Of a DNA stretch of 64,000 bases, positions 2,896 to 60,668 are shown one piece after another; within the stretch, counting starts at the first letter, position 1, and each line of letters opens with the position of its first letter. Below the pieces are notes generated by a model. That model saw nothing but the letters and a program-made list of their open reading frames with translations. It had not been told where the DNA came from and searched no databases. Origin of the DNA: an uncultured Candidatus Saccharibacteria bacterium (GTDB lineage Bacteria > Patescibacteriota > Minisyncoccia > Phycocordibacterales > UBA9988); assembly GCA_964401135.1 (NCBI GenBank), contig CAYNXC010000002.1, positions 16,457-80,456 on the forward strand, in the 5' to 3' direction. The position numbers were made by a program, and so were the translations under genes.

Positions 2896-5463
<2,568 letters not shown>

Positions 5464-32503: not shown

Positions 32504-32588
32504 GGAGGGGTCGCATAGAGGCCTAGTGCGCGCGCTTGGAAAGCGCGTAAGGGTTACACCTTCGAGGGTTCGAATCCCTCCCTCTCCG
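32504..32588 (+). tRNA. tRNA-Ser (GGA), class II with a long variable arm.
   Basis: Acceptor GGAGGGG/CCTCTCC, anticodon stem CGCGC/GCGCG, loop TTGGAAA, variable hairpin AAGG-GTTACA-CCTT and T-arm GAGGG/CCCTC. Confidence 0.8.
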
Positions 32589-32666
32589 CACTAAGAACCT
32601 GGTAGTTTTGTGACCCAAGTACCTAAGGTTGTAGGGCGACCCAGGTACCTAGTAATTACCTGGAAA

Positions 32667-33911
32667 ATGCCCGACGAATATCGCAATCATCATTACGTAC
32701 CACAGTGGTACCAAAAGAAGTTCATGCTACCGAACGAGCATGAGTTATTTCACTTGGATTTAAAACCCGAGACGTTCACCGATCCTCGCGGCGTGGTTCA
32801 TACCAAGAAGCCATTACGGCGACAAGGTAGTAAAAAGTGTTTCGTCCAAGAGGATCTTTATACGACGAAGATTCAAGGTATCGAAACAAAGGATATAGAG
32901 AAATATTTCTTCGGCGATATTGATACCAAAGGTCGTCCTGCTGTCGAATATTTCGAGGGGTTTGATTATCCCCTTAAACCCTGGGGTGAATCACTTCAGG
33001 ACATCATGCGTTACATGAGTACACAGAAGCTCAGGACTCCGAAAGGTCTATCATTTCTTAGCGAGAAAATTGGAAGTAAGGATAAGGACGCGATTCTACG
33101 CAATATGATCCGAGTGCGTAATGTTCATGCCGCTATTTGGATGGAATGCGTCTGGCTTATTGCAGACGCTTCACAGTCGGAGACTAAATTCATCATCTCA
33201 GACCATCCCGTTACTGTTTATAATCGTGAATGCGGTCCTCGATCCAGTTACTGTCGAGACTCAAATGACCCCGAGATATGGCTTCAAGGTACGCATACAA
33301 TTTTTCCACTTTCCATAGATAAGGTTCTCATTCTCACAAATTTATCCTGGGTGCGGAATCCATATCAATCCGCAACCAATCTACGACCGAATCCAAATCC
33401 ATACCGCAATGCGATATTCAAATTTACTGACGTTCAGGTTCGACGACAATTAAGTGAACAAGAGGTACGAGAAATCAATTTCATCATAAAAAGCCGAGCT
33501 TCCCGATATGTAGCCGCAGCCAAAGAAGAATGGCTTTACCCAGAAAGACATGTATCCAAATCAGATTGGAACAAATACGGTCATGGATATCTTTTGATGC
33601 CCGATCCTCGCGCTATTCATTGGGGAGGAACCATAATGTGGGGCGGTGGCCCAGGCGGTCCAGGTGCAATGGATGAATATGGAAGACTGCCCGGAGATCC
33701 TGATTTTGAAGCAGAGACAACCAAAGGTAAGGAGTACCAAACGCTCCCTTGGTTTCAGGGAGAATTTGCAAAGCTGTTCGGTCCTTATCGCCGAGGCCGT
33801 TGTATGCAACATATTGAAATTGAAAAGGAACGGGACGATGATGAATTTCACCAGTACCATCTCGGTCTTCAGAAAAAGAGCTATAAGGAACGACACGGCA
33901 AGAAGAAATAG
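32667..33911 (+). CDS. DUF4238 family protein (HHYVPQ and SDHPV motifs). Cargo of the tRNA-Ser-adjacent island.
   Basis: The N-terminal RNHHYVPQWYQKKF and the central KFIISDHPVTV match the two hallmark motifs of DUF4238. The track ORF starts at 32610, but 32667 (MPDEY) is more plausible. Confidence 0.55.
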   Translation: MPDEYRNHHYVPQWYQKKFMLPNEHELFHLDLKPETFTDPRGVVHTKKPLRRQGSKKCFVQEDLYTTKIQGIETKDIEKYFFGDIDTKGRPAVEYFEGFDYPLKPWGESLQDIMRYMSTQKLRTPKGLSFLSEKIGSKDKDAILRNMIRVRNVHAAIWMECVWLIADASQSETKFIISDHPVTVYNRECGPRSSYCRDSNDPEIWLQGTHTIFPLSIDKVLILTNLSWVRNPYQSATNLRPNPNPYRNAIFKFTDVQVRRQLSEQEVREINFIIKSRASRYVAAAKEEWLYPERHVSKSDWNKYGHGYLLMPDPRAIHWGGTIMWGGGPGGPGAMDEYGRLPGDPDFEAETTKGKEYQTLPWFQGEFAKLFGPYRRGRCMQHIEIEKERDDDEFHQYHLGLQKKSYKERHGKKK

Positions 33912-33914
33912 TTT

Positions 33915-35225
33915 TTAGTTGGAGTCCTCTGTAAGCAGAGTAATCTTCTTATCGTTCAGCACCAATCTGCTTCTTAGATGACCCATCAGTTCACGCTTCT
34001 CAAGCGGTGTACCCTCGCGGAGTACGTATTTTGCATATTCCTTTGTCGCAATATCGTCTTCATCGATCTGCATCTTGGGCTTGCCTTTGACCGCAAGTCT
34101 CTGCAATCTATTGAATCGCTTAATTTCTTCTTCGAGCTTCATCCGCATGCCAAGCTCGTTCATGGTGAGCTTGTCGATAATCTTGAATAGTTCCTCGACG
34201 AGTTCTTCCTCGCGGATATATTTGTTCTTGCAGTTCCTGTCTCTCGCTTTCGAGCAAGAGTAGTAGACGTACTTTGCATTCGTGCCATCTTTGAGCAGTT
34301 TGTATTTCTCCTGCGCCGTGATGCCCGATCCGCACATGCCACAGGTAAATAATTTGGTGAAGGCAAACTCTCTGTTCTCGCGCACAACTTTGTCGCGCTT
34401 CAATTGCTCCTGCACTTTCTTGAATAATTCCTCGCTGATTAGCGGCTCATGTGTTCCTTGATACCAGTTGCCGCTGTTCTTTGGATACTCGAATGGTCCG
34501 TAATAAATGGGCATCTGGAGCATGCGATATACACCAGAGAGTGTGAGTGGCTTGTTACCTCGCGTATAGAAGTTAAGCTCGAAACGGAGCCAGTTGTACA
34601 CTTTTCTACCGCTCCACAAATCGTATGCCACTTTTTCAAACATCTGCTTCACGATCGGTGCACGTTGCGGATCAATAACGATACGGCATTTCTTTTCTAT
34701 CAATTTCTGGTTGAGATATCCGAGCGGCGCCATGCCCGGCCACAACCCCATCTCCACTCTCGTTCTCAAACCTCGCTTCACGTTGATGCCCCGGTTGTCG
34801 TTCTCGAGCTTCGCCTGCGATCCAAGGATCATGAGGAGGAATTTTTCATTCGGATTATTAGTAAACTTTTGTCCGTAGGTGCGTATTTCCTTGAGCTTTC
34901 CAACGTCCATAAGATCGATCACTTTGCCGAGGTCGCCTGCGTTACGGCTGATGCGATCCGGCGCCCATGTGAGGATACCGTTGTATTTGTCATCCCTAAT
35001 TTCTTCGATGATCTCGTTAAATACAGGGCGCTGGCCAGTCTCCTTGGCGGAGTGAGATTCTCGCTTCATTGTCACAACTTCCAAATTTTCTCGCTCTGCT
35101 AGCTGGAGCATCTCCTTGATCTGGGAATCGATAGAAAGCGCCTGTCGTTCCTCCGCTTCGCTCGACTTGCGGGCATACAGGCAATATCTGATTGGTTTCT
35201 GTTCCTTTACGGTTGCGTTTTCCAT
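33915..35225 (-). CDS. Large serine recombinase (integrase).
   Basis: N-terminal resolvase catalytic domain (YARKSS catalytic Ser, DRISRN), a recombinase domain, and a Cys4 zinc ribbon (CGMCGS...CSKARDRNC) with a coiled-coil tail. 436 aa. Confidence 0.85.
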   Translation of the reverse strand: MENATVKEQKPIRYCLYARKSSEAEERQALSIDSQIKEMLQLAERENLEVVTMKRESHSAKETGQRPVFNEIIEEIRDDKYNGILTWAPDRISRNAGDLGKVIDLMDVGKLKEIRTYGQKFTNNPNEKFLLMILGSQAKLENDNRGINVKRGLRTRVEMGLWPGMAPLGYLNQKLIEKKCRIVIDPQRAPIVKQMFEKVAYDLWSGRKVYNWLRFELNFYTRGNKPLTLSGVYRMLQMPIYYGPFEYPKNSGNWYQGTHEPLISEELFKKVQEQLKRDKVVRENREFAFTKLFTCGMCGSGITAQEKYKLLKDGTNAKYVYYSCSKARDRNCKNKYIREEELVEELFKIIDKLTMNELGMRMKLEEEIKRFNRLQRLAVKGKPKMQIDEDDIATKEYAKYVLREGTPLEKRELMGHLRSRLVLNDKKITLLTEDSN

Positions 35226-35349
35226 GCATACACGAACATACCGGATACGGGTACGAAGTCTAGCCGCATACGAAACACAGAGCAGAAGCGGGAGGAAGTC
35301 AACTACACAAAAATCCCGAGGGAAGCTAAGGTCTTTTAGGGGGTGAGAA

Positions 35350-35562
35350 TTAAAAACTAATGAGATTGTTCACTTTAAGCCCTAGTGCTTTGGCGATCTT
35401 CTCCATGTTGGTGAGTGTAATGTTTTTCTCGGCACGTTCAATCATACCGATGTATGTCCTGTGGACTTTAGCCAACTGCCCTAAGCGCTCTTGAGAAATA
35501 TCGCGTTTCAGTCGTTCTTCTCGGACTCTTTTGCCAAATTGTATGAGAATAGTCTTGTTCAT
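35350..35562 (-). CDS. XRE-family HTH transcriptional regulator (cI/Cro-like repressor).
   Basis: 70 aa with the HTH_3 motif (SQERLGQLAKVHRTYIGMIERAEKNITLTNMEKIAKAL). Confidence 0.8.
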   Translation of the reverse strand: MNKTILIQFGKRVREERLKRDISQERLGQLAKVHRTYIGMIERAEKNITLTNMEKIAKALGLKVNNLISF

Positions 35563-35661: not shown

Positions 35662-35681
35662 TAAAATTGAGAACAATATTC

Positions 35682-36521
35682 ATGAATAAAATCTTTAAAA
35701 GACTACTCGTATTTGCGGTACTATTTGCTCTTACTTCTTCGAATGTTTTTGCTGCAACTAAAACCTGGGACTTTTCCACTTCGTCGGACTACACTTTTGA
35801 TACTACTAAAATTGAAGTCATAGGAGGACAAGCACAATTGAAAGCTACAACAACTCCTGCTTGGTATGACACCAGTTGGAAATATAGAAAGAAAATATCA
35901 ATTGACCATACAAAAATATCGTCAGATTTAACAGATTTTCCTGTTCTCGTTAATCAAACTTCTGACTCAGACTTGGCAGCCAAAGCGTTAACGTCAGGTA
36001 ACGATATATTTTTCACTTCATCTGATGGAGTTACAAAACTAAGCCACGAAATAGAGACATATGCATCAACAACAGGAGCTTTAGCTGCATGGATTAAAGT
36101 TCCTACAGTATCCTCTTCTGTAGATACTGATGTTTATATGTATTATGGTAATGCTGCAGCTTCTGCTCAAGCGAATGCAAATGGAGTATGGGATAGTAAT
36201 TCAATTGTTGTTCAACATCTTAATGCTACTACTAGCCCAGCACTAGACTCAACATCTAATGCGAATAGTGGAGTTCAGTCTGGAGGAGTTACTTTCAGTG
36301 CAACAGGCAAGATAGGTAATGCTGTGAGCATGGACGGTGTTAATGACAAACTATCCTTAACAAGTAATAGTGGCTTAAACGCAACAGGCACCCTAAGTAT
36401 TAGTGCATGGGTAAATAGAACTGCATCGGGCAAGATGAGGGTAGTTGCAAAAACAGTTACTACTGGAACAACTGACAACCCATATGATTTTGGTATAAAT
36501 ACGGATAATACACTTTATTTA
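35682..36521 (+). pseudogene. 5' fragment (about 280 codons) of a large secreted DUF2341/LamG-like surface-protein gene, interrupted by IS insertion.
   Basis: Signal peptide MNKIFKRLLVFAVLFALTSSNVFAA, a DUF2341-like WKYRKKISIDHTKISSDLTDFPVLV, and a LamG-like region. The frame runs into the IS left inverted repeat and stops 9 codons later. Confidence 0.75.
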
Positions 36522-36551
36522 AGGGAACTATATACAATGTTACCCTAAAAA

Positions 36552-37085
36552 TTAATTAGATTTTGGTTTGTCTAAATCTTCCAAAGAAAAGCCCAGGTCA
36601 GGAAAAATAAGATTTCTTAGATAAATACTCCCTGCAAAAAGAACGGTATTAATATCAACTCCAGACTGGAAAGCCCCTTGTTTGAGTGATTCTACAACAT
36701 CAGGACAATGTATTGGTAACTCCATCATTATCTCGGATATTACTTTCTCTGCATCATAAGGATTAGTCGTATTTTTACTTTGAACTAATTTTAGAAGTTC
36801 GTCTTTTTTTGCGTCAATAATTTCTTTAATTCCGCTATCATCTAAGATAGCTTGCCCTCTTGAGTTTAATTGTCGTGGAGAATTAGCAGGTGCAATTTTG
36901 TCTTTCCATAGAATATCCAGTTTAGGGAACATATCTGCCACTTTGGGTTTAATGTCTTTAATATCTTCCAGCATAAAATTTGTTCTTTCATCAATCCTCG
37001 CAATCAATTCACGAGTATTACCCAACAGGATAGCAGAAATCCAGTTACCTGCTTTTTTGGCTAAATTAAGGGCTTGTTGTTCCAT
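36552..37085 (-). CDS. Hypothetical 177-aa passenger protein of the IS element, function unknown.
   Basis: Intact ORF between IRL and the transposase gene, on the opposite strand. No motif recognised. Confidence 0.5.
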   Translation of the reverse strand: MEQQALNLAKKAGNWISAILLGNTRELIARIDERTNFMLEDIKDIKPKVADMFPKLDILWKDKIAPANSPRQLNSRGQAILDDSGIKEIIDAKKDELLKLVQSKNTTNPYDAEKVISEIMMELPIHCPDVVESLKQGAFQSGVDINTVLFAGSIYLRNLIFPDLGFSLEDLDKPKSN

Positions 37086-37197
37086 AGGATTATTACATTA
37101 CTAGTATATCAAAACGGCTGTTGCAAGTTAATACTAGTCAAAAAGTTACCCCCAATTATTACTTGACAACCCTATTGTGATCGTATAAGCTATAGGT

Positions 37198-38115
37198 ATG
37201 GATAGCCGATACAAAACCTTGGTAGAGTTCCTCGCCCACTTTAAGGATGAGGAAACCTGTCAAAAATACTTTGAGCAAATCCGCTTCTCCCAAGGCGAGT
37301 ATTGCCCTCATTGTAACCACAGTAAAATCAACCGCTTTTCAGACGGCAAACGCTTTCGCTGTGCTAAGTGCAAAAAGGACTTCACTATTAAGACCAAGAC
37401 CGTCTTTGGCGAAAGCAAAATCTCAATGCAGAAATGGTTTGTCGCAATTTACCTTTTGTCCGTCAATAAGAAAGGCATTAGCTCTATTAACCTAGCCGAG
37501 CAAGTGGGCGTTACTCAAAAGACCGCGTGGTTTATGGATCATCGTATTCGTAAAGCCTTGAAACAAAATAGCGGTCAGTTGTTTGGCACAGTAGAAATAG
37601 ACGAAACCTATATCGGCGGCAAGGAAAAGAACAAGCACGCCCACAAGCGAACCAAGCGCACCCAAGGCCGAAACACTTTGACCAAAACCCCTGTAATGGG
37701 AATGATACAGCGAGGCGGTGCAATGAAAGCCAAAGTGATAGATAATGTAAAGATGCGAACCTTGGAAAGTCTGATTATTGAAAATGTAAAAATTGGGACA
37801 CAGCTCTACACAGACGAGTTTTTGTCTTACTCCAAAATCGGCAGTCTCTTTGCTCACGAGGCCGTGTCACACGGCAAAGGCCAGTATGTAAAAGGTGATA
37901 GCCACTCCAACACCGCCGAGAGTTTTTGGGCATTGTTTAAGCGTGGCTACTACGGCACTTACCACAACATGAGTAAGAAGCATTTGCAGAAGTATGTGGA
38001 CGAGTTCGTGTATCGCTTTAACAACCGAGCCGTGGAGCTAGCCGATGTATTCACTGATGTCGTGGCGAATGTAGCGGGTAGCGAGAAGCTGGCTTATAAG
38101 ACTCTTACCGCTTAA
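37198..38115 (+). CDS. IS1595-family DDE transposase.
   Basis: N-terminal zinc ribbon (CPHCNHSKI...FRCAKCKKDF), VEIDETYIGGKEKNKH, SNTAESFWALFKRGYYGTYH and YVDEFVYRFNNR blocks characteristic of IS1595/ISXO2-like transposases. Confidence 0.85.
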   Translation: MDSRYKTLVEFLAHFKDEETCQKYFEQIRFSQGEYCPHCNHSKINRFSDGKRFRCAKCKKDFTIKTKTVFGESKISMQKWFVAIYLLSVNKKGISSINLAEQVGVTQKTAWFMDHRIRKALKQNSGQLFGTVEIDETYIGGKEKNKHAHKRTKRTQGRNTLTKTPVMGMIQRGGAMKAKVIDNVKMRTLESLIIENVKIGTQLYTDEFLSYSKIGSLFAHEAVSHGKGQYVKGDSHSNTAESFWALFKRGYYGTYHNMSKKHLQKYVDEFVYRFNNRAVELADVFTDVVANVAGSEKLAYKTLTA

Positions 38116-38116
38116 T

Positions 38117-39025
38117 ATGTCCCCACGAGAACGCAAATATCACGAGGGGTTAGGGGTAGACTTTAATCAAGCTCTTGTCTCTATTGCTGGTGAGAACCGA
38201 ACCGAGCGGAGTATCGCCGCCCGACCATTTCTAAAGTGGGTCGGTGGCAAGCGGTCAATCCTGCCAGAGCTTCTAAAGCGGTTGCCGACCAAGTATGACG
38301 CTTACCATGAGCTGTTTCTAGGCGGTGGTGCGTTGTACTTCGCCGTCCAGCCAGAGGAGGCTTATCTGTCTGATGTAAACTTCCACCTCATCCTTACTTT
38401 CAAGGCGGTGCGAGATGATCTGGACAGCTTAATCCGTCAGTTAAAAATCCACGAACGATTACACAACAAGGAATACTATCTCAAAGCTCGCCAGAAGCTC
38501 TTTAAGGAAAAGGACACCACCAAACTGGCGGCTCTCTTTATCTACCTCAATAAAACTTGCTTCAATGGTCTTTACCGAGTAAACAAGGGGGGTGGCTTCA
38601 ATGTCCCGATGGGCGACTACAAAGACCCAAACATTTTAGACGAGGAAAATCTGCGTAATGCTTCAAAGGTTTTAGCGACCGCCGAGATTAAACAGCACGG
38701 CTTTGAGCATACCAAAATCTACAAAGGCGACTTCTACTATCTTGACCCGCCCTATCACGAAACCTATAGCGGTTATGATGGCTCTGGCTTTGGCGATGAA
38801 CACCACCGCAAGCTCGCCGAGTTCTGCAAACAGATAGACCAAAAGGGCAGTTACTTTATGCTCTCCAACAGCGACACGCCATTTGTCAGAGAGTTATATA
38901 AGGGCTATACTATTGAGCAAGTAGAGGCTTCACGAAATGTCTCTTGCAAAGCCCACCAGCGAGGCAAAGAAAATGAGCTTATCATCCGAAACTACACCAA
39001 TAACGGGGGGCGGACAAGCCAATAA
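38117..39025 (+). CDS. Dam-family N6-adenine DNA methyltransferase (alpha class).
   Basis: FLKWVGGKRSILPELL (SAM-binding motif I) and YYLDPPY (motif IV). About 300 aa. Confidence 0.85.
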   Translation: MSPRERKYHEGLGVDFNQALVSIAGENRTERSIAARPFLKWVGGKRSILPELLKRLPTKYDAYHELFLGGGALYFAVQPEEAYLSDVNFHLILTFKAVRDDLDSLIRQLKIHERLHNKEYYLKARQKLFKEKDTTKLAALFIYLNKTCFNGLYRVNKGGGFNVPMGDYKDPNILDEENLRNASKVLATAEIKQHGFEHTKIYKGDFYYLDPPYHETYSGYDGSGFGDEHHRKLAEFCKQIDQKGSYFMLSNSDTPFVRELYKGYTIEQVEASRNVSCKAHQRGKENELIIRNYTNNGGRTSQ

Positions 39026-39473
39026 AACGGGCAGTGTTTTAGAGCTATTTATCAAGCGACTTTTAGAGGACAACGGCTACACCGCCTTTCCTAACCACAA
39101 AGCCCAGCTATTCGCCAATCGTAAAACTGTCGGTGGTAAGCAATACTCTACCCAAGTTCCTTGTGGTACGAGTATCTACGAAACCCAGCGTAAATGCGAC
39201 TTCTTGATCATGAACCAAGACAAGTTCCCCGATGGACTGGTGATTGAGTGCAAGTGGCAACAGTCTACTGGCTCGGTAGACGAGAAGTACCCTTTTACCT
39301 TGTTTAACATCATCAAGATCGGCGTGCCAACCATCATTCTGCTGGACGGCAACGGCTACAAAAAGGCGGCGATGAAGTGGTTAAAAGACCAAGTGAACCC
39401 ACAGAGAGCCTTAATCGGCGTTTACAATATGGCCGAGTTTCAAGCTATGGTAAATAAGGGGTTTTTAGGTTAG
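38937..39473 (+). CDS. Short PD-(D/E)XK nuclease, the putative restriction endonuclease partner of the Dam methylase.
   Basis: CDFLIM...GLVIECKWQ gives a D...ExK core. It overlaps the 3' end of the methylase gene (possible true start M13 at 38973), and its stop is inside the IRR. Confidence 0.55.
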   Translation: MSLAKPTSEAKKMSLSSETTPITGGGQANKTGSVLELFIKRLLEDNGYTAFPNHKAQLFANRKTVGGKQYSTQVPCGTSIYETQRKCDFLIMNQDKFPDGLVIECKWQQSTGSVDEKYPFTLFNIIKIGVPTIILLDGNGYKKAAMKWLKDQVNPQRALIGVYNMAEFQAMVNKGFLG

Positions 39474-39490
39474 GGTAACTTTGTATATAA

Positions 39491-42190
39491 TTCCCTTATT
39501 TAAATCGTGCAGATTCAAGTGTTGTAAATTTTCTATCAAGTTCAACAACTGTACCGACAAATTCATGGACAAAAATTGAAGTAATTGATGACACTGTCGT
39601 TAAAAGTGCTTTCAACAGCGTCTCAAAATTAGTCACCCTAGCGACATCTACAAGAGCGTGGCAGGGGGTAGCAAGTGATGGGACTTATATCTATGCAATT
39701 GGACAAAATGCTATTTCGCAGTTTGATATGCAAGGTAATTTTATAAAAGAAAAGAATAATGTATACAGTGGTTTTACTGGTGGCAACATCCTAGGTAATG
39801 GAACAGTAATTAATGGAAAGTTATATGTCGGGGCATATAATGCGAATACTTTAGGAGCGTCAACAAATCCTAATTACACTCCGTTATCAGATCTTCAATC
39901 AAAAATTGCTGTCTTTAGCCTATCTGATTTTTCATTAATTGAAGATTTTAACCTTGGTACTCAAGTAAAAATTGCTGAGGGTGTTGATTATCACAATGGT
40001 TACTTTTGGGTAGTTGATGGATGGTTTGATACTTTCGTCGTAAAAAAATACGATACTAGTTTTAATTTAGTCTCTACGTATAGCTTGCCTGTAGCAAATG
40101 CTTTCGCTGGAGAATTAACATACCAAAATATTAATTGGTATGGGAATGACATTTTTGTTAATTGGCATGGCTCAAATTCTTTTGGACAAACCTATGCTTA
40201 TGGGTTGGATCATTATTCTTTTGACGGAACAAATTTTAATTTTGTAGAACGATTAAGACCAGTAACATATGGTGCAGGTCAAGGTATTGCAATTGTCGGA
40301 AATACGTTTTATTGGGCAGATAGACCTGGAAATGCGATCTACAAATCAACATATGTTGGAGCTGGAAATGGTGATGATGGTATTGATCCATCACATACAA
40401 AATTTTTCATAAATGGAGTTGGTGAGCTTGCTCATGTAAGTACTGGCTCTCTCACTGTGCTTTCACCTACAAGTAATACCAGTCCAACGGTTATTGGAAC
40501 TAGGGGCGATTCAAGTAGTTTTTATAAAGGTGTCATAGATGAAGTTCGAATTTCAAATGCGGCAAGATCAGATGCATGGGTCTCGGCAAGTTACGCCAAT
40601 GAAAACTCACCAAGTACATTCTATTCGATGGGTTCGGAACAAAAAAATTATGCAGCTACTAACCCGACTGTTAATCCCACATCATTAAATGCGCAAGCCT
40701 TCTCATCCCTGTCAGGCTTTTCAGCAGTTGAAGTAAGTAATGGAGGAAATATAAAGTATCAAGTTTCAAATGATGGAGGAACCACATGGTATTGGTACAA
40801 CTCTGGCTGGAATACAACAACTTCAGGATACTCTGAGACAAATGCATCTTCAACTATAAATACAAATATCGCTTCTTTACCTGTAGGAAGTGGATCATAC
40901 TTATTTAAAGCATATTTAAATTCTGATGGAACGCAGCAACCTCAGATAGACAGTGTGGTGCTCACATACTCTGCGCCACTTGATATTACAGCTCCTATTA
41001 TATCTGCGATAGCGTCTTCTACATCCCAAACTTCAGCAACTATTACCTGGACGACCGATGAATCAGCCACATCAACGGTAAATTATGGTCTTAACACTTC
41101 ATACGGTACAGCGTCATCCTCATCATCTCTCGTTACCTCTCATTCGATATCCTTGTCAGGATTAACCGCATCAACCGCATACCATTTCCAAGTAGCATCA
41201 GCTGACGCTTCTGGAAACGTTGCAACTTCTTCAGACTATACATTCACCACAACAGCAGTGCCTGACACAACGCCTCCGGTCATTTCATCAATTTCTTCCG
41301 GTTCACTTTCAACTTCAGGAACAACTATAACTTGGACCACTGATGAAGCTGCGGATTCCCAAGTTAACTACGGCACAAGTGCCTCATATGGATCACAGAC
41401 GACCCTTGATTCAACACTAGTGACGAGTCACTCCATTGTAATTTCAGGTCTTTCTGCAGGAACGACGTATCACTACCAAGTAGTGTCAAAAGATGCTTCT
41501 GGAAACACAGCTACATCTTCTGACCAAACCTTTACCACTTCAGCACAGCCTTCGAGCGGGGGTTCATCAAGCGGATCATATTCCGGAGGAGGCTCAATCC
41601 TTATCCAACCTTCTGTGCCGGGCTGTCCTACAGGATTCAATTGTGTAGTAAATCCAACCCCTACCATTTTACCAAATACTTTTACTCGTGATCTCACCAT
41701 AAAAAGTACTGGTAGTGATGTGAAGGTATTGCAGCAGTTCCTGATCGCTAAAGGCTTTCTTGCGAGCGGCAATGACACGGGATACTTTGGTCCTCTGACG
41801 CAAGCTGCTCTCGCGCAATACCAGCTTTCGATGGGTATTAAACCATCGGTTGGATATTTCGGCTCACTTACTCGTGCAGTCATTGCTGTCTCGCAGAACA
41901 TATCACCTACTACTCCATCAATATCAACAAATCCGACGGTACTTCCAAGCACGTTTACTCGAGATCTGTATTTCGGCATGAGTGGAGACGATGTAAAACT
42001 CTTGCAAAAGTTCCTTAATGACCATCAATTTATAGTCAGCCAAACTGGCGCAGGATCTCCAGGACTTGAATCAAATTATTTCGGCCCAGCCACCCGAGAC
42101 GCCCTTATTCGTTTTCAGACTTACAATCACATAGTCCCTGCAGTAGGGTATTTTGGTTCGCTTACACGCCAATTCGTAAATGGTCAGTAG
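39491..42190 (+). pseudogene. 3' portion (about 896 codons) of the IS-interrupted surface-protein gene, with two FN3-like domains and two peptidoglycan-binding (PG_binding_1-like) domains.
   Basis: The frame is open from 39491, immediately after the IRR. ITWTTDESATSTVNYG...AYHFQVASADASGN occurs twice (FN3/PAP-N-like), and GSDVKVLQQFL...YFGPLTQAAL occurs twice (PG-binding). The track ORF starts at an internal ATG, 39728. Confidence 0.75.
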
Positions 42191-56440: not shown

Positions 56441-57199
56441 ATGTACGATTCTATCACGGCAGCTGTCGCAACAACGGCACCTCAAGTGGTGGGTACGACC
56501 GGAGCTTTTTCAATTCTCTCTGACTCCGGGGCGGCACTCACCTCATCGTTTGAGAAAATCGCGGCTGGTATTTATATCTTCGCACCTCGTATCATTATCG
56601 CAATCCTTATCCTTGTTCTTGGATGGGTCATTGGTGCATTCTTGGAGCGAGCAGTGAGGGAAGTGCTACGCTCACTCAAGATGGATCGCGCTCTCGCTAA
56701 TGTGGGGGTTGACGAGCTCGTCTCTCACACCGGAATGCAGCTCAATAGCGGCTCTTTCATCGGTGGGCTCATCAAGTGGTTTATCATCGCGGTCTTTCTC
56801 GTTGCTGCGGTTAATGTGCTTGGCTTGGTTGATCTCAATGTCTTTTTGAATGTCATTGTGCTCTCCTTCCTTCCAAACATCATTGTCTCCGCGCTCGTCT
56901 TAATGGTTGCCGCGATACTCTCTGATGCAGTGCAGCGCCTTGTATACTTTTCTGCAAAGGGGACGGGAGTAAAGTCAGCACACCTCTTAGGGCTCATCGC
57001 AAAGTGGTCAATCTGGATCTTTGCTCTCTTGGTAGTGATGAATCAACTCAATATCGGAGCAGAGTTTGCTCAAATCCTCTTCACTGGGATCATCTTTATG
57101 GTAGCGCTCGCAGGAGGTCTTGCCTTTGGTCTTGGAGGACGGGATTGGGCAGCAGGCATCTTGGAGCGGGTTACTGATGATTTGGGTGGCAAAAAGTAG
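56441..57199 (+). CDS. Polytopic membrane protein with repeated conserved-TM-helix units (MscS-N-terminal-like).
   Basis: Six predicted TM helices in a repeating pattern. Confidence 0.5.
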   Translation: MYDSITAAVATTAPQVVGTTGAFSILSDSGAALTSSFEKIAAGIYIFAPRIIIAILILVLGWVIGAFLERAVREVLRSLKMDRALANVGVDELVSHTGMQLNSGSFIGGLIKWFIIAVFLVAAVNVLGLVDLNVFLNVIVLSFLPNIIVSALVLMVAAILSDAVQRLVYFSAKGTGVKSAHLLGLIAKWSIWIFALLVVMNQLNIGAEFAQILFTGIIFMVALAGGLAFGLGGRDWAAGILERVTDDLGGKK

Positions 57200-57262: not shown

Positions 57263-57486
57263 GTTAGTATATAATGGCCTCAATGTCTATAGGGTATCAA
57301 CTAATGTTCAAACGGCGATGAGCTAGAGGGATATGTCTGGTGCTCGAGAGCCGCTTGAACGAAGCGGATTTTTTTACCCCAGCGACAGAAGACTTTCTTT
57401 GAAAACTGAATAGCAGGTAACATCTGTAAAGAGAATTAGAATTGTAAGAGAAAGATGATGTAAAGATTTCCTAATAGGAAATGGCG

Positions 57487-60468
<2,982 letters not shown>

Positions 60469-60530
60469 TCCTATTAGGAAACCTCTACATCATTTATCGT
60501 TCTCTTCACTCTGATCTTCTGTATTTTGTT

Positions 60531-60628
60531 CTGGTGGTTTGGTGGAGGGGTCACACCCGGCTCCATTCCGAACCCGGCAGTTAAGCCCTCTAGCGCCGAT
60601 GATACTCGTAAGGGGAAAGTAGGTGACC
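60531..60628 (+). rRNA. rrf: 5S ribosomal RNA.
   Basis: Helix I CTGGTGG/CCGCCAG, and CCATTCCGAACCCGGCAGTTAAGCCC conserved loop C/helix III sequence. Confidence 0.85.
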
Positions 60629-60668
60629 GCCAGAACAAAGTTCAGAAGATCTGCTATACTTATATAAT

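What the first reader, a model, noticed from the sequence alone, without database searches (positions are those of the whole stretch)
38117..39473. The Dam-family methylase gene overlaps an unusually small PD-(D/E)XK nuclease gene, suggesting a compact mobile R-M module or a non-canonical partner
The methylase has clear SAM-binding and DPPY motifs. The downstream ORF overlaps it by 50-90 bp and has a canonical D...ExK core (CDFLIM...VIECKWQ). At only about 166-178 aa it is far smaller than the GATC endonucleases I know (MboI/DpnII about 280 aa, Sau3AI about 490 aa). It could be a minimal Type II REase with a different specificity, or a methyl-directed or nicking enzyme.
Basis: partly seen in the sequence, partly recalled or inferred. 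Interest (0 to 1): 0.55.

Follow-up and report, generated by a model that had tools for sequence, protein, structure and literature searches.

The report
Transposon carrying a miniature GATC restriction-modification system
The methylase and the small nuclease are the cargo of a 3-kb jumping gene that has recently landed inside a host gene, so what looked like an odd gene pair is most likely a self-mobile restriction-modification system found in many bacterial phyla.

Summary
Window 38117-39025 encodes a Dam-family adenine methylase. An overlapping ORF, most likely 38973-39473 (166 aa), encodes a PD-(D/E)XK nuclease of the uncharacterised Pfam family PF20472. The nuclease is homologous only to the C-terminal catalytic half of DpnII/LlaDCHI, the classical GATC enzymes. 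In 85 of 87 related loci from many phyla it sits next to a Dam-family methylase, in two different gene orders. This supports a cognate, probably GATC-specific, Type II restriction-modification pair. No cleavage or methylation was tested.

The larger finding lies outside the given coordinates. Both genes, the IS1595-family transposase directly upstream and a 177-aa passenger ORF lie inside one 2973-bp element (36523-39495). It has 26-bp terminal inverted repeats (24/26) and a perfect 8-bp target duplication (TTATTTAA). Removing it in silico restores an uninterrupted 1180-codon host ORF.

The same transposase-methylase-nuclease unit, with the same ends, occurs at about 25 independent sites, about 18 with their own perfect 8-bp duplications. 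A GATC sits at a fixed position in the operon promoter in 20 of the 20 elements where a -35 hexamer was found, which suggests control by the element's own methylase.

Verdict: a new variant of known kinds (transporter IS plus minimal DpnII-like system). Moderately interesting.

The parts
36515..36522 (.). Left copy of the 8-bp target-site duplication, TTATTTAA
   Evidence: Identical to 39496-39503. An 8-bp duplication is also seen at about 18 other insertions of the same element.
36523..36548 (+). Left terminal inverted repeat (IRL), GGGAACTATATACAATGTTACCCTAA
   Evidence: Matches the reverse complement of 39470-39495 at 24 of 26 positions. These are the only two matches in the window, against 0 expected in shuffles. 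The same consensus ends about 25 related elements.
36552..37085 (-). Passenger ORF of 177 aa in the variable cargo slot between IRL and the transposase promoter; function unknown
   Evidence: No Pfam family. It has 138 homologues in Patescibacteria. In the four contexts shown for one homologue it lies between yebC and ruvC, and another homologue sits in an unrelated chromosomal context. None is present in the other copies of the element. A promoter-like site lies at 37131-37103 on the minus strand.
37163..37191 (+). Putative operon promoter: -35 TTGACA (37163-37168), 17-nt spacer holding GATC (37179-37182), weak -10 TAAGCT (37186-37191). The ATG follows 6 nt later, so the mRNA is probably leaderless.
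   Evidence: TTGACAACCC-N5-TGATC is conserved. GATC lies at a fixed offset in all 20 distinct elements in which a -35 hexamer was found. The consensus scan did not flag this promoter because the -10 matches only 3 of 6.
37198..38115 (+). IS1595-family DDE transposase, 305 aa, with N-terminal zinc ribbon
   Evidence: PF12762 E 9e-44 (profile positions 1-153 of 153), PF12760 E 6e-11, and NF033547 at 199.6 bits against a cut-off of 75.
38117..39025 (+). Dam-family (D12 class, DpnM-like) N6-adenine DNA methylase, 302 aa; starts 1 nt after the transposase stop codon
   Evidence: The closest solved structure is DpnM, 2DPM, at E 3e-57. In the same call's alignment to E. coli Dam, the query has K, N, L, R and P at the positions I recall (from memory) as GATC contacts K9, N120, L122, R124 and P134.
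38973..39473 (+). Small PD-(D/E)XK nuclease, 166 aa (an alternative ATG at 38937 gives 178 aa); putative restriction endonuclease. Its stop codon TAG (39471-39473) lies inside IRR.
   Evidence: PF20472 E 3e-38; invariant D76, E92, K94; REase-like fold; homology to the C-terminal half of DpnII/LlaDCHI.
39470..39495 (-). Right terminal inverted repeat (IRR); its reverse complement reads GGGAATTATATACAAAGTTACCCTAA
39496..39503 (.). Right copy of the target-site duplication, TTATTTAA
35667..36522 (+). 5' part of the host gene that the insertion interrupted (DUF2341 domain)
   Evidence: Joining 35667-36522 to 39504-42190 gives one ORF of 1180 codons with no internal stop. Pfam result.
39504..42190 (+). 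3' part of the interrupted host gene (Laminin_G_3, fn3 and PG_binding_1 domains)

Best explanation
Window 36523-39495 is a 2973-bp transporter insertion sequence (tIS) of the IS1595 family. Besides its DDE transposase it carries a compact Type II restriction-modification system related to DpnII/LlaDCHI and most likely specific for GATC.

The three genes (transposase, methylase, nuclease) form one tightly packed operon. There is a 1-nt gap between the transposase and methylase genes, and the nuclease start codon lies inside the 3' end of the methylase gene. The operon is read from a promoter just inside the left part of the element.

Proposed roles (inferred):
- The methylase protects host GATC sites.
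- The 166-aa nuclease is the catalytic core of a DpnII-type enzyme without the N-terminal half. It cuts unmethylated GATC, presumably as a homodimer.
- The transposase moves the whole unit and makes 8-bp target duplications.
- The restriction-modification cargo would help the element persist, through phage defence and/or post-segregational killing.
- The invariant GATC in the promoter spacer would let the element's own methylase feed back on expression of the transposase and the restriction-modification genes.

Shown here: the element's anatomy, its recent insertion, recurrent independent insertions, the methylase-nuclease linkage, and the homologies.

Inferred, not shown: GATC specificity, cleavage of unmethylated DNA, dimerisation, translational coupling, and methylation control of the promoter.
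For: Element anatomy
- Inverted repeats match at 24 of 26 positions and occur only twice in the window, with 0 expected.
- A perfect 8-bp duplication flanks the element. Excising it in silico restores a 1180-codon ORF.

Recurrence
- The window shares 37158-39500 and the IRL segment with loci that lie in unrelated contexts.
- About 25 elements have the same inverted-repeat consensus, and about 18 have their own perfect 8-bp duplications.
- Transposase identity falls to 39% across CPR bacteria, Verrucomicrobiota, Acidobacteriota, Planctomycetota, Proteobacteria and Deinococcota.

Methylase
-.

Nuclease
- PF20472 with invariant D...ExK.
- REase-like fold.
- 19 of 27 members hit the DpnII model over positions 142-265 of 278.
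- hhalign against LlaDCHI gives E 9e-4, with four collinear motif blocks.

Linkage
- A Dam-family methylase is adjacent in 85 of 87 loci. The genes are co-directional and overlapping in most, and convergent in Nostocales.
- A natural methylase-nuclease fusion exists, P0155.

Packing
- Gene junctions are conserved.

Promoter
- GATC is present at a fixed offset in 20 of 20 elements.

Literature
- tIS are described as known only in the IS1595 and IS66 families.
Against: - No biochemical or methylome data exist. No member of PF20472 that I could find has been characterised, and RefSeq names a homologue only 'PD-(D/E)XK nuclease superfamily protein'.
- The match to the DpnII model is below Pfam's gathering score (20 against 23 bits) and covers only half of that family.
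- GATC is only mildly under-represented in the window (0.77) and is not an outlier among 4-bp palindromes. This is expected for a recent arrival, but it gives no positive support.
- The window's own -10 hexamer is weak, and the consensus scan did not flag the promoter.
- It is unexplained how a folded domain of about 150 aa both recognises GATC and dimerises.
Confidence: 0.72

Rival explanations
1. The nuclease has no DNA-recognition ability of its own. It works as a subunit bound to the Dam methylase, which supplies GATC recognition. This would be a split Type IIC/IIG-like or Type III-like arrangement rather than two independent Type IIP enzymes.
For: - The protein lacks the whole N-terminal half of DpnII-type enzymes.
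- A natural in-frame methylase-nuclease fusion exists, P0155, 432 aa.
- The genes overlap, so the two products would be made together.
- The methylases in these elements carry a conserved N-terminal extension of about 35 aa that has no counterpart in E. coli Dam.
Against: - Only 1 fusion appears among 150 cluster representatives, and a single-base indel in the overlap would produce it.
- In Nostocales the two genes are convergent and separated.
- Small stand-alone PD-(D/E)XK Type IIP enzymes exist, for example PvuII at 157 aa (my own knowledge).
- The motifs shared with DpnII include the N-terminal helix block ANKTGxxLE, which could contact DNA.
Confidence: 0.12
2. The pair is not a restriction system. 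It is an orphan-like Dam methylase plus a strand-nicking or repair nuclease, analogous to MutH or Vsr, that uses methylation state for strand discrimination.
For: - MutH is a small PD-(D/E)XK enzyme that acts at hemimethylated GATC together with Dam (established knowledge).
- PADLOC scores the methylase about equally well as 'Type II MTase' and as 'orphan MTase'.
- GATC is not strongly avoided in the host DNA.
Against: - There is no sequence match to MutH, Sau3AI or Vsr families. The only family matches are PF20472 and DpnII.
- A repair nickase has no obvious reason to travel inside an IS across phyla without MutS or MutL.
- The closest solved methylase is DpnM, which belongs to a restriction system.
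Confidence: 0.08
3. The small nuclease is a transposition accessory like TnsA of Tn7. It would cut the second strand at the element ends, and the methylase would only regulate transposition.
For: - The nuclease is encoded in the transposase operon, and its stop codon lies inside IRR.
- TnsA is a restriction-enzyme-like PD-(D/E)XK protein and appears among weak fold matches (ranks 29, 47 and 50).
- A GATC is conserved in the transposase promoter.
Against: - More than 50 loci have the nuclease and methylase with no transposase, including all the Nostocales loci.
- Linkage to the methylase (85 of 87) is far tighter than linkage to the transposase (about 32 of 87).
- IS1595-family elements generally transpose without such a partner (established knowledge).
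- The inverted repeats contain no GATC.
Confidence: 0.04

Closest known systems
DpnII / LlaDCHI / MboI restriction-modification systems (GATC; REase family PF04556, methylase DpnM)
   Same: - The methylase is closest to DpnM among solved structures.
- The nuclease shares four collinear motif blocks with residues 151-288 of R.LlaDCHI, including the D...E-x-(K/N)...GS catalytic region.
- The methylase gene precedes the nuclease gene and overlaps it, as in pSRQ700 and pSt08.
   Different: - The nuclease is 166 aa against about 288-304 aa. The whole N-terminal half is missing.
- Its score is below the family's gathering threshold, and Pfam files it separately as PF20472.
- There is no second (DpnA-type) methylase.
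- The system is carried inside an IS.
Transporter IS (tIS) of the IS1595 family, e.g. MTnSag1 and tISCpe8 (lincomycin resistance)
   Same: IS1595-type DDE transposase with a zinc ribbon, terminal inverted repeats of about 25 bp, a target duplication, and passenger genes inside the inverted repeats.
   Different: - The cargo here is a restriction-modification system co-transcribed with the transposase, not a resistance or mobilisation gene.
- There is a second, variable cargo slot upstream of the transposase.
- The hosts are mostly uncultured phyla.
Transposon-like R-M units of Furuta, Abe and Kobayashi 2010 (PMC2853133): X. oryzae Type II unit, and N. gonorrhoeae Type IIG unit with 26-bp inverted repeats, 8-bp duplication and a degenerate COG3677 transposase-like gene
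   Same: Restriction-modification genes bounded by imperfect inverted repeats and inserted with an 8-bp target duplication.
   Different: - Those units had no transposase, or a likely inactive one, and in the Neisseria case a truncated R-M gene. The authors could not say what moved them.
- Here an intact transposase is part of the operon, and about 18 independent insertions are seen.
Dam-regulated insertion sequences IS10, IS50 and IS903
   Same: A GATC lies in the transposase promoter region. In IS10 and IS50 such sites make transposase expression sensitive to Dam methylation (established knowledge: Roberts et al. 1985; Yin et al. 1988, cited from memory).
   Different: - Those IS rely on the host's Dam. 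This element brings its own.
- The GATC lies in the spacer just upstream of the -10 rather than inside it.
- No GATC is present in the inverted repeats.
- The effect of methylation is untested.

Membership tests
Pfam PF20472 (PDDEXK_11) | Score at or above the family gathering threshold over the whole domain | tested here: met
   131 bits against 23.7, profile positions 1-145 of 145. All 27 aligned homologues match.
PD-(D/E)XK nuclease superfamily | Conserved D...(D/E)xK catalytic residues on the alpha/beta core fold | tested here: met
DpnII restriction endonuclease family (PF04556) | Score at or above the gathering threshold | tested here: not met
   19.9-20.2 bits against a cut-off of 23. 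19 of 27 homologues match at E<=0.01, best 2.7e-6.
DpnII restriction endonuclease family (PF04556) | Full-length architecture of about 280 aa, including the N-terminal half | tested here: not met
   Only profile positions 142-265 of 278, or LlaDCHI residues 151-288 of 304, are covered. Real DpnII-type enzymes match positions 2-277.
Type II restriction-modification system | Conserved genomic pairing of a DNA methylase with a nuclease | tested here: met
   85 of 87 loci, in two gene orders. Overlapping genes.
Type II restriction-modification system | The nuclease cleaves the unmodified recognition site and is blocked by the cognate methylation | not testable with these tools
   Needs purified protein or methylome data.
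Dam / DpnM GATC-specific methylases | Motif I (FxGxG), motif IV (DPPY) and the GATC-contacting residues of E. coli Dam | tested here: met
   TIGR00571 scores 286 bits against 115. FLGGGA and DPPY are present. In the alignment to 2G1P/4RTJ the query has K, N, L, R and P at the positions I recall as contacts K9, N120, L122, R124 and P134. The contact assignments are from my recollection of Horton et al. 2006. The actual specificity was not tested.
IS1595-family insertion sequence / tIS | DDE_Tnp_IS1595 transposase with an N-terminal zinc ribbon | tested here: met
   PF12762 E 9e-44, PF12760 E 6e-11, and NF033547 at 199.6 bits against 75.
IS1595-family insertion sequence / tIS | Terminal inverted repeats and an 8-bp target-site duplication | tested here: met
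   Inverted repeats match at 24 of 26; duplication TTATTTAA; empty site reconstructed. About 18 further insertions have a perfect 8-bp duplication.
IS1595-family insertion sequence / tIS | Passenger genes between the inverted repeats | tested here: met
   The methylase, the nuclease and ORF177 all lie within 36523-39495.
Dam-regulated IS (IS10/IS50 type) | GATC in the transposase promoter whose methylation changes promoter activity | tested here: inconclusive
   GATC is conserved at a fixed offset in 20 of 20 promoters. The effect of methylation cannot be tested here.
MutH / Sau3AI family | Sequence membership | tested here: not met
   No such family appears among the Pfam, NCBIfam or PDB sequence hits.

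The most novel reading that the evidence does not exclude
The element is a self-contained 'epigenetic transposon'. Its own Dam methylase methylates the invariant GATC in the spacer of the single promoter that drives transposase, methylase and nuclease. Expression and transposition would then burst when the element enters an unmethylated cell or just after replication, and shut down once methylation is established. This would couple horizontal spread, establishment of the restriction-modification system and transposition in one 2.4-3 kb unit that also captures host genes in a second cargo slot.
Probability: 0.3. Interest if true: 0.72.

Novelty: new variant of a known kind. Interest (0 to 1): 0.55.

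Why it matters
Restriction-modification systems are thought to behave as selfish mobile units, but clear cases where one sits inside an autonomous, demonstrably active transposon are scarce. The best published examples lacked a working transposase, and a 2025 review of restriction-modification biology holds no mention of transposases or insertion sequences in a term search.

Here an intact transposase, a methylase and a nuclease form one operon between inverted repeats. There are many independent insertions across distant phyla, including genome-reduced CPR bacteria, and the element also sits in a phage-like contig. This gives a concrete vehicle for the spread of GATC methylation and restriction.

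It also points to a roughly 150-residue DpnII-type catalytic core as a candidate for one of the smallest GATC restriction enzymes. That is directly testable and potentially useful.

The conserved promoter GATC offers a simple test of self-imposed epigenetic control of transposition.

Tried and rejected
- Inverted-repeat search limited to 36900-39800 found no terminal repeats. The left end lies further left. It was found only by comparing loci and reading the ends.
- phmmer of the nuclease against PDB sequences gave only chance hits.
- For the nuclease, PADLOC gave only a marginal REase_II hit (E 0.007) and PHROGs gave nothing.
- hhalign of the shallow alignment A1 against the single LlaDCHI sequence was weak (E 0.18). 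A more diverse profile gave E 9e-4.
- GATC avoidance as evidence for restriction was uninformative: ratio 0.77 in the window and 0.81 in the pooled loci, within the range of other palindromes.
- The weak DpnI (PF06044) hit of the transposase (E 0.002) covers only its zinc ribbon, and I dismissed it.
- Look-up of the 100%-identical ORF177 protein P0271, to locate the source contig, failed.
- Literature searches found no paper on PF20472 or on an IS1595 element carrying a restriction-modification system. Siguier et al. 2009 could not be read. Furuta et al. cite it for M genes associated with IS, so a precedent there cannot be excluded.
- The consensus promoter scan did not list the proposed operon promoter in the window.
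- Pfam gave nothing for the cargo-slot proteins.
Full report
**1. The observation**

ORF listing and the raw sequence confirm a 302-aa ORF at 38117-39025 (+) and an overlapping ORF in another frame ending at 39473. The second ORF has possible starts at 38937 (178 aa) and 38973 (166 aa).

The first ORF is a Dam-family methylase:
- PF02086, E 6e-60.
- TIGR00571 'dam', 286 bits against a cut-off of 115.
- FLGGGA and DPPY are visible in the translation.

The second ORF matches PF20472 (PDDEXK_11) end to end, E 3e-38. It also matches the DpnII model weakly (E 5e-4, 19.9 bits, below the 23-bit cut-off), and only over profile positions 142-265 of 278.

Homologues are numerous and mostly short:
- 332 at 90% clustering, with modal lengths of 164-166 aa.
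- 731 clusters at 50% identity. Nearly all of the 150 listed are 150-190 aa.

In related loci the ATG corresponding to 38973 is conserved. It is embedded in the codons for the methylase's conserved NELIIxNY motif. I therefore take 38973 as the start, which gives a 53-nt overlap.

**2. What surrounds it**

The ORF directly upstream (37198-38115) is an IS1595-family transposase (PF12762 E 9e-44, PF12760, NF033547). It ends 1 nt before the methylase ATG.

Looking up close homologues of the nuclease showed the same transposase-methylase-nuclease triad in unrelated neighbourhoods. One locus has the methylase and nuclease without a transposase.

A blastn comparison showed that similarity between the window and these loci runs from about 37158 to about 39500. 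There is also a detached block of about 30 nt at 36515-36551. Reading the ends and a script gave:
- IRL at 36523-36548, GGGAACTATATACAATGTTACCCTAA.
- IRR at 39470-39495, matching at 24 of 26 positions in inverted orientation.
- Identical 8-bp direct repeats, TTATTTAA, immediately outside both ends.

The inverted-repeat sequence occurs only at these two places in the window, with 0 expected. Deleting the element and one repeat copy fuses ORF 35667-36548 with ORF 39728-42190 into a single 1180-codon ORF with no internal stop. That ORF encodes a surface-type protein with DUF2341, Laminin_G_3, fn3 and PG_binding_1 domains.

The element is therefore a 2973-bp insertion that is recent enough for both halves of its target gene to be intact. 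The nuclease stop codon lies inside IRR.

The window itself is chromosomal. It carries 23S and 5S rRNA genes and tRNAs.

**3. Recurrence and mobility**

A scan of one genome per species found 204 relatives of the nuclease. The best 80 were fetched. They come from Paceibacterota, Saccharibacteria and other CPR groups, Verrucomicrobiota, Acidobacteriota, Planctomycetota, Myxococcota, Desulfobacterota, Alpha- and Gammaproteobacteria, Deinococcota, Spirochaetes and many Nostocales.

A tblastn survey of the 87 loci showed:
- A Dam-family methylase is adjacent in 85 of them. It is upstream, co-directional and overlapping in most. In the Nostocales it is downstream and convergent.
- An IS1595 transposase lies directly upstream of the methylase in about 32 loci.

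For the transposase-bearing loci, a search for inverted repeats found the same terminal consensus, GGGAACTATATACAAAGTTACCCTAA, in about 25 elements. About 18 have their own perfect, AT-rich 8-bp duplications, for example TTCGATTA, TTTTTTTG, ATAATTTT and TAAAATTG.

Transposase identity to the window copy ranges from 86% to 39%. The association of transposase and restriction-modification genes is therefore old, and the unit has moved many times.

Gene junctions are conserved:
- Transposase to methylase: a 1-nt gap in 12 loci, or a 4-nt ATGA overlap in 12.
- Methylase to nuclease: an overlap of usually 26-56 nt.

One version sits in a 43-kb phage-like contig beside a terminase gene. Only 7 relatives were found in IMG/VR, one on a plasmid and none in GenBank phages.

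**4. Relation to DpnII**

The closest solved relative of the methylase is DpnM of the DpnII system (E 3e-57). E. coli Dam scores 1.6e-28. In the alignment to E. coli Dam, the query has K, N, L, R and P at the positions I recall as making the GATC contacts: K9, N120, L122, R124 and P134. The contact assignment comes from my memory of Horton et al. 2006.

For the nuclease:
- 19 of 27 family members hit the DpnII model at E<=0.01 (best 2.7e-6), always over its C-terminal half.
- I fetched the DpnII homologue R.LlaDCHI from pSRQ700, a GATC enzyme as I recall from Moineau et al. 1995. It is 304 aa and matches PF04556 over its full length.
- A profile of about 100 diverse PF20472 sequences aligns to it with E 9e-4. 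Nuclease residues 10-153 correspond to LlaDCHI residues 151-288.
- Four motif blocks are collinear: ANKTGxxLE with NRSGTTME, RKCDF with RRFDA, LIIECKWQQSxGS with WLIETNYYGGGGS, and LLDGxGY with VTDGQGW.

The small protein is thus a homologue of the catalytic half of DpnII-type enzymes and lacks their N-terminal roughly 150 residues. It fails membership of PF04556 on score and on architecture, and it is properly a member of PF20472.

**5. Mechanism (shown and inferred)**

Shown: the element's anatomy, its insertion, its recurrence, the linkage and the homologies.

Inferred:
- The methylase modifies GATC.
- The nuclease cuts unmodified GATC, probably as a homodimer.
- The three genes are co-transcribed and translationally coupled.
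- The cargo benefits the element by defence and/or addiction.

The strict methylase linkage in two gene orders and the kinship to DpnM and DpnII make a cognate restriction-modification pair the most economical reading. I put it at about 0.7.

Rivals:
- A methylase-dependent nuclease subunit. This is supported by the missing N-terminal half and by one natural fusion, P0155.
- A MutH-like nickase. No sequence support.
- A TnsA-like transposition helper. This is contradicted by more than 50 transposase-free loci.

**6. Promoter GATC**

Upstream of the transposase gene all elements share TTGACAACCC-N5-TGATC-N3-TAnnnT. In 18 of 18 distinct main-group elements the GATC starts 16 nt after the start of the -35 hexamer, while the flanking spacer bases vary. 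In the two most divergent elements (transposase 39-40% identical, spacer otherwise unrelated) a GATC is again present, 3 nt further on.

In the window the features are: -35 at 37163-37168, GATC at 37179-37182, -10 TAAGCT at 37186-37191, and the ATG at 37198. This implies a leaderless mRNA.

The -10 is weak, and the generic scan did not flag the site. By analogy with IS10 and IS50, the conserved GATC suggests that the element's own methylase modulates the operon. This is untested.

**7. Cargo slot**

Between IRL and the promoter, the elements have either about 100 nt or 0.3-1 kb of varied, mostly minus-strand genes.
- In the window the slot holds a 177-aa ORF with its own promoter-like site and no Pfam family.
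- It has 138 homologues in Patescibacteria. In the contexts shown for one of them it lies between yebC and ruvC, and another sits in an unrelated chromosomal context.
- The ORF therefore looks like a captured host gene.

**8. Novelty**

Transporter IS are known in the IS1595 family. Transposon-like restriction-modification units with inverted repeats and 8-bp duplications were described by Furuta et al., but without a working transposase.

I found no description of PF20472, or of an IS1595 element carrying a restriction-modification system. ISfinder, REBASE and Siguier et al. 2009 could not be consulted.

I rate this a new variant of known kinds, of moderate interest. Interest would be higher if the self-methylation control or the minimal GATC enzyme were confirmed.

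Noticed in passing
window, whole (excluding 36523-39503): The tetranucleotide ACGT is strongly avoided: 25 observed against 142 expected from a Markov model, ratio 0.18. TCGA (0.51) and CATG (0.56) are also low. This suggests that other restriction systems with these sites act, or acted, on this genome.
   Followed up: no
window 36552-37085 (-); loci L089-L093 at about 4001-4528: The 177-aa passenger ORF belongs to a family of 138 Patescibacteria proteins with no Pfam domain. In the contexts shown for one homologue it lies between yebC and ruvC, so it looks like a host gene captured by the element. Its function is unknown.
   Followed up: partly
cargo slots of L017, L018, L024, L025, L033, L035 (between IRL and the transposase gene, minus strand): In non-CPR copies the slot holds small proteins (56-139 aa) with one or two repeats of the motif SQAGxxRHKCxxCAYxxG and no Pfam family. 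The CPR copies L004, L009 and L019 instead hold a pair: a 70-87-aa protein and a 101-114-aa protein with an apparently hydrophobic C-terminal tail that may span the membrane.
   Followed up: partly
L097-L100 (JGI contigs of about 43 kb): The same transposase-methylase-nuclease element sits in a phage-like contig, a few genes upstream of a large terminase gene. This is a possible vehicle for its spread. No clean target duplication is present there.
   Followed up: partly
window 38883-38911 (+): A good sigma-70-like site (TTGTCA, 17 nt, TATACT; 10 of 12) lies inside the methylase gene, about 60 nt upstream of the nuclease ATG. It could be an internal promoter for the nuclease or a chance match.
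   Followed up: no
window 32504-35562: A tRNA gene (32504-32588) is followed by an ORF, a large serine recombinase (33915-35225, minus strand) and a small HTH protein (35350-35562, minus strand), just upstream of the interrupted gene. This may be the edge of another integrated element.
   Followed up: no
window 57477-60635: 23S and 5S rRNA genes are present, but Rfam reported no 16S rRNA anywhere in the window; an ORF (56441-57199) lies just upstream of the 23S gene. I recall unlinked rRNA genes as common in CPR bacteria, which would fit the Paceibacterota affinity of the closest element copy, L008.
   Followed up: no
proteins P0155 (432 aa) and P0203 (317 aa): Two rare fusions of the PF20472 domain were found: one to the C-terminus of a D12 methylase, and one to an N-terminal region that Pfam does not recognise but that looks ParB-like to me by eye (DGHNR motif).
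   Followed up: partly
L048-L086 (Nostoc, Calothrix, Tolypothrix and other Nostocales): Cultured cyanobacteria carry the nuclease convergent with a Dam-family methylase and without the transposase. These are accessible strains in which methylation and restriction could be tested.
   Followed up: no
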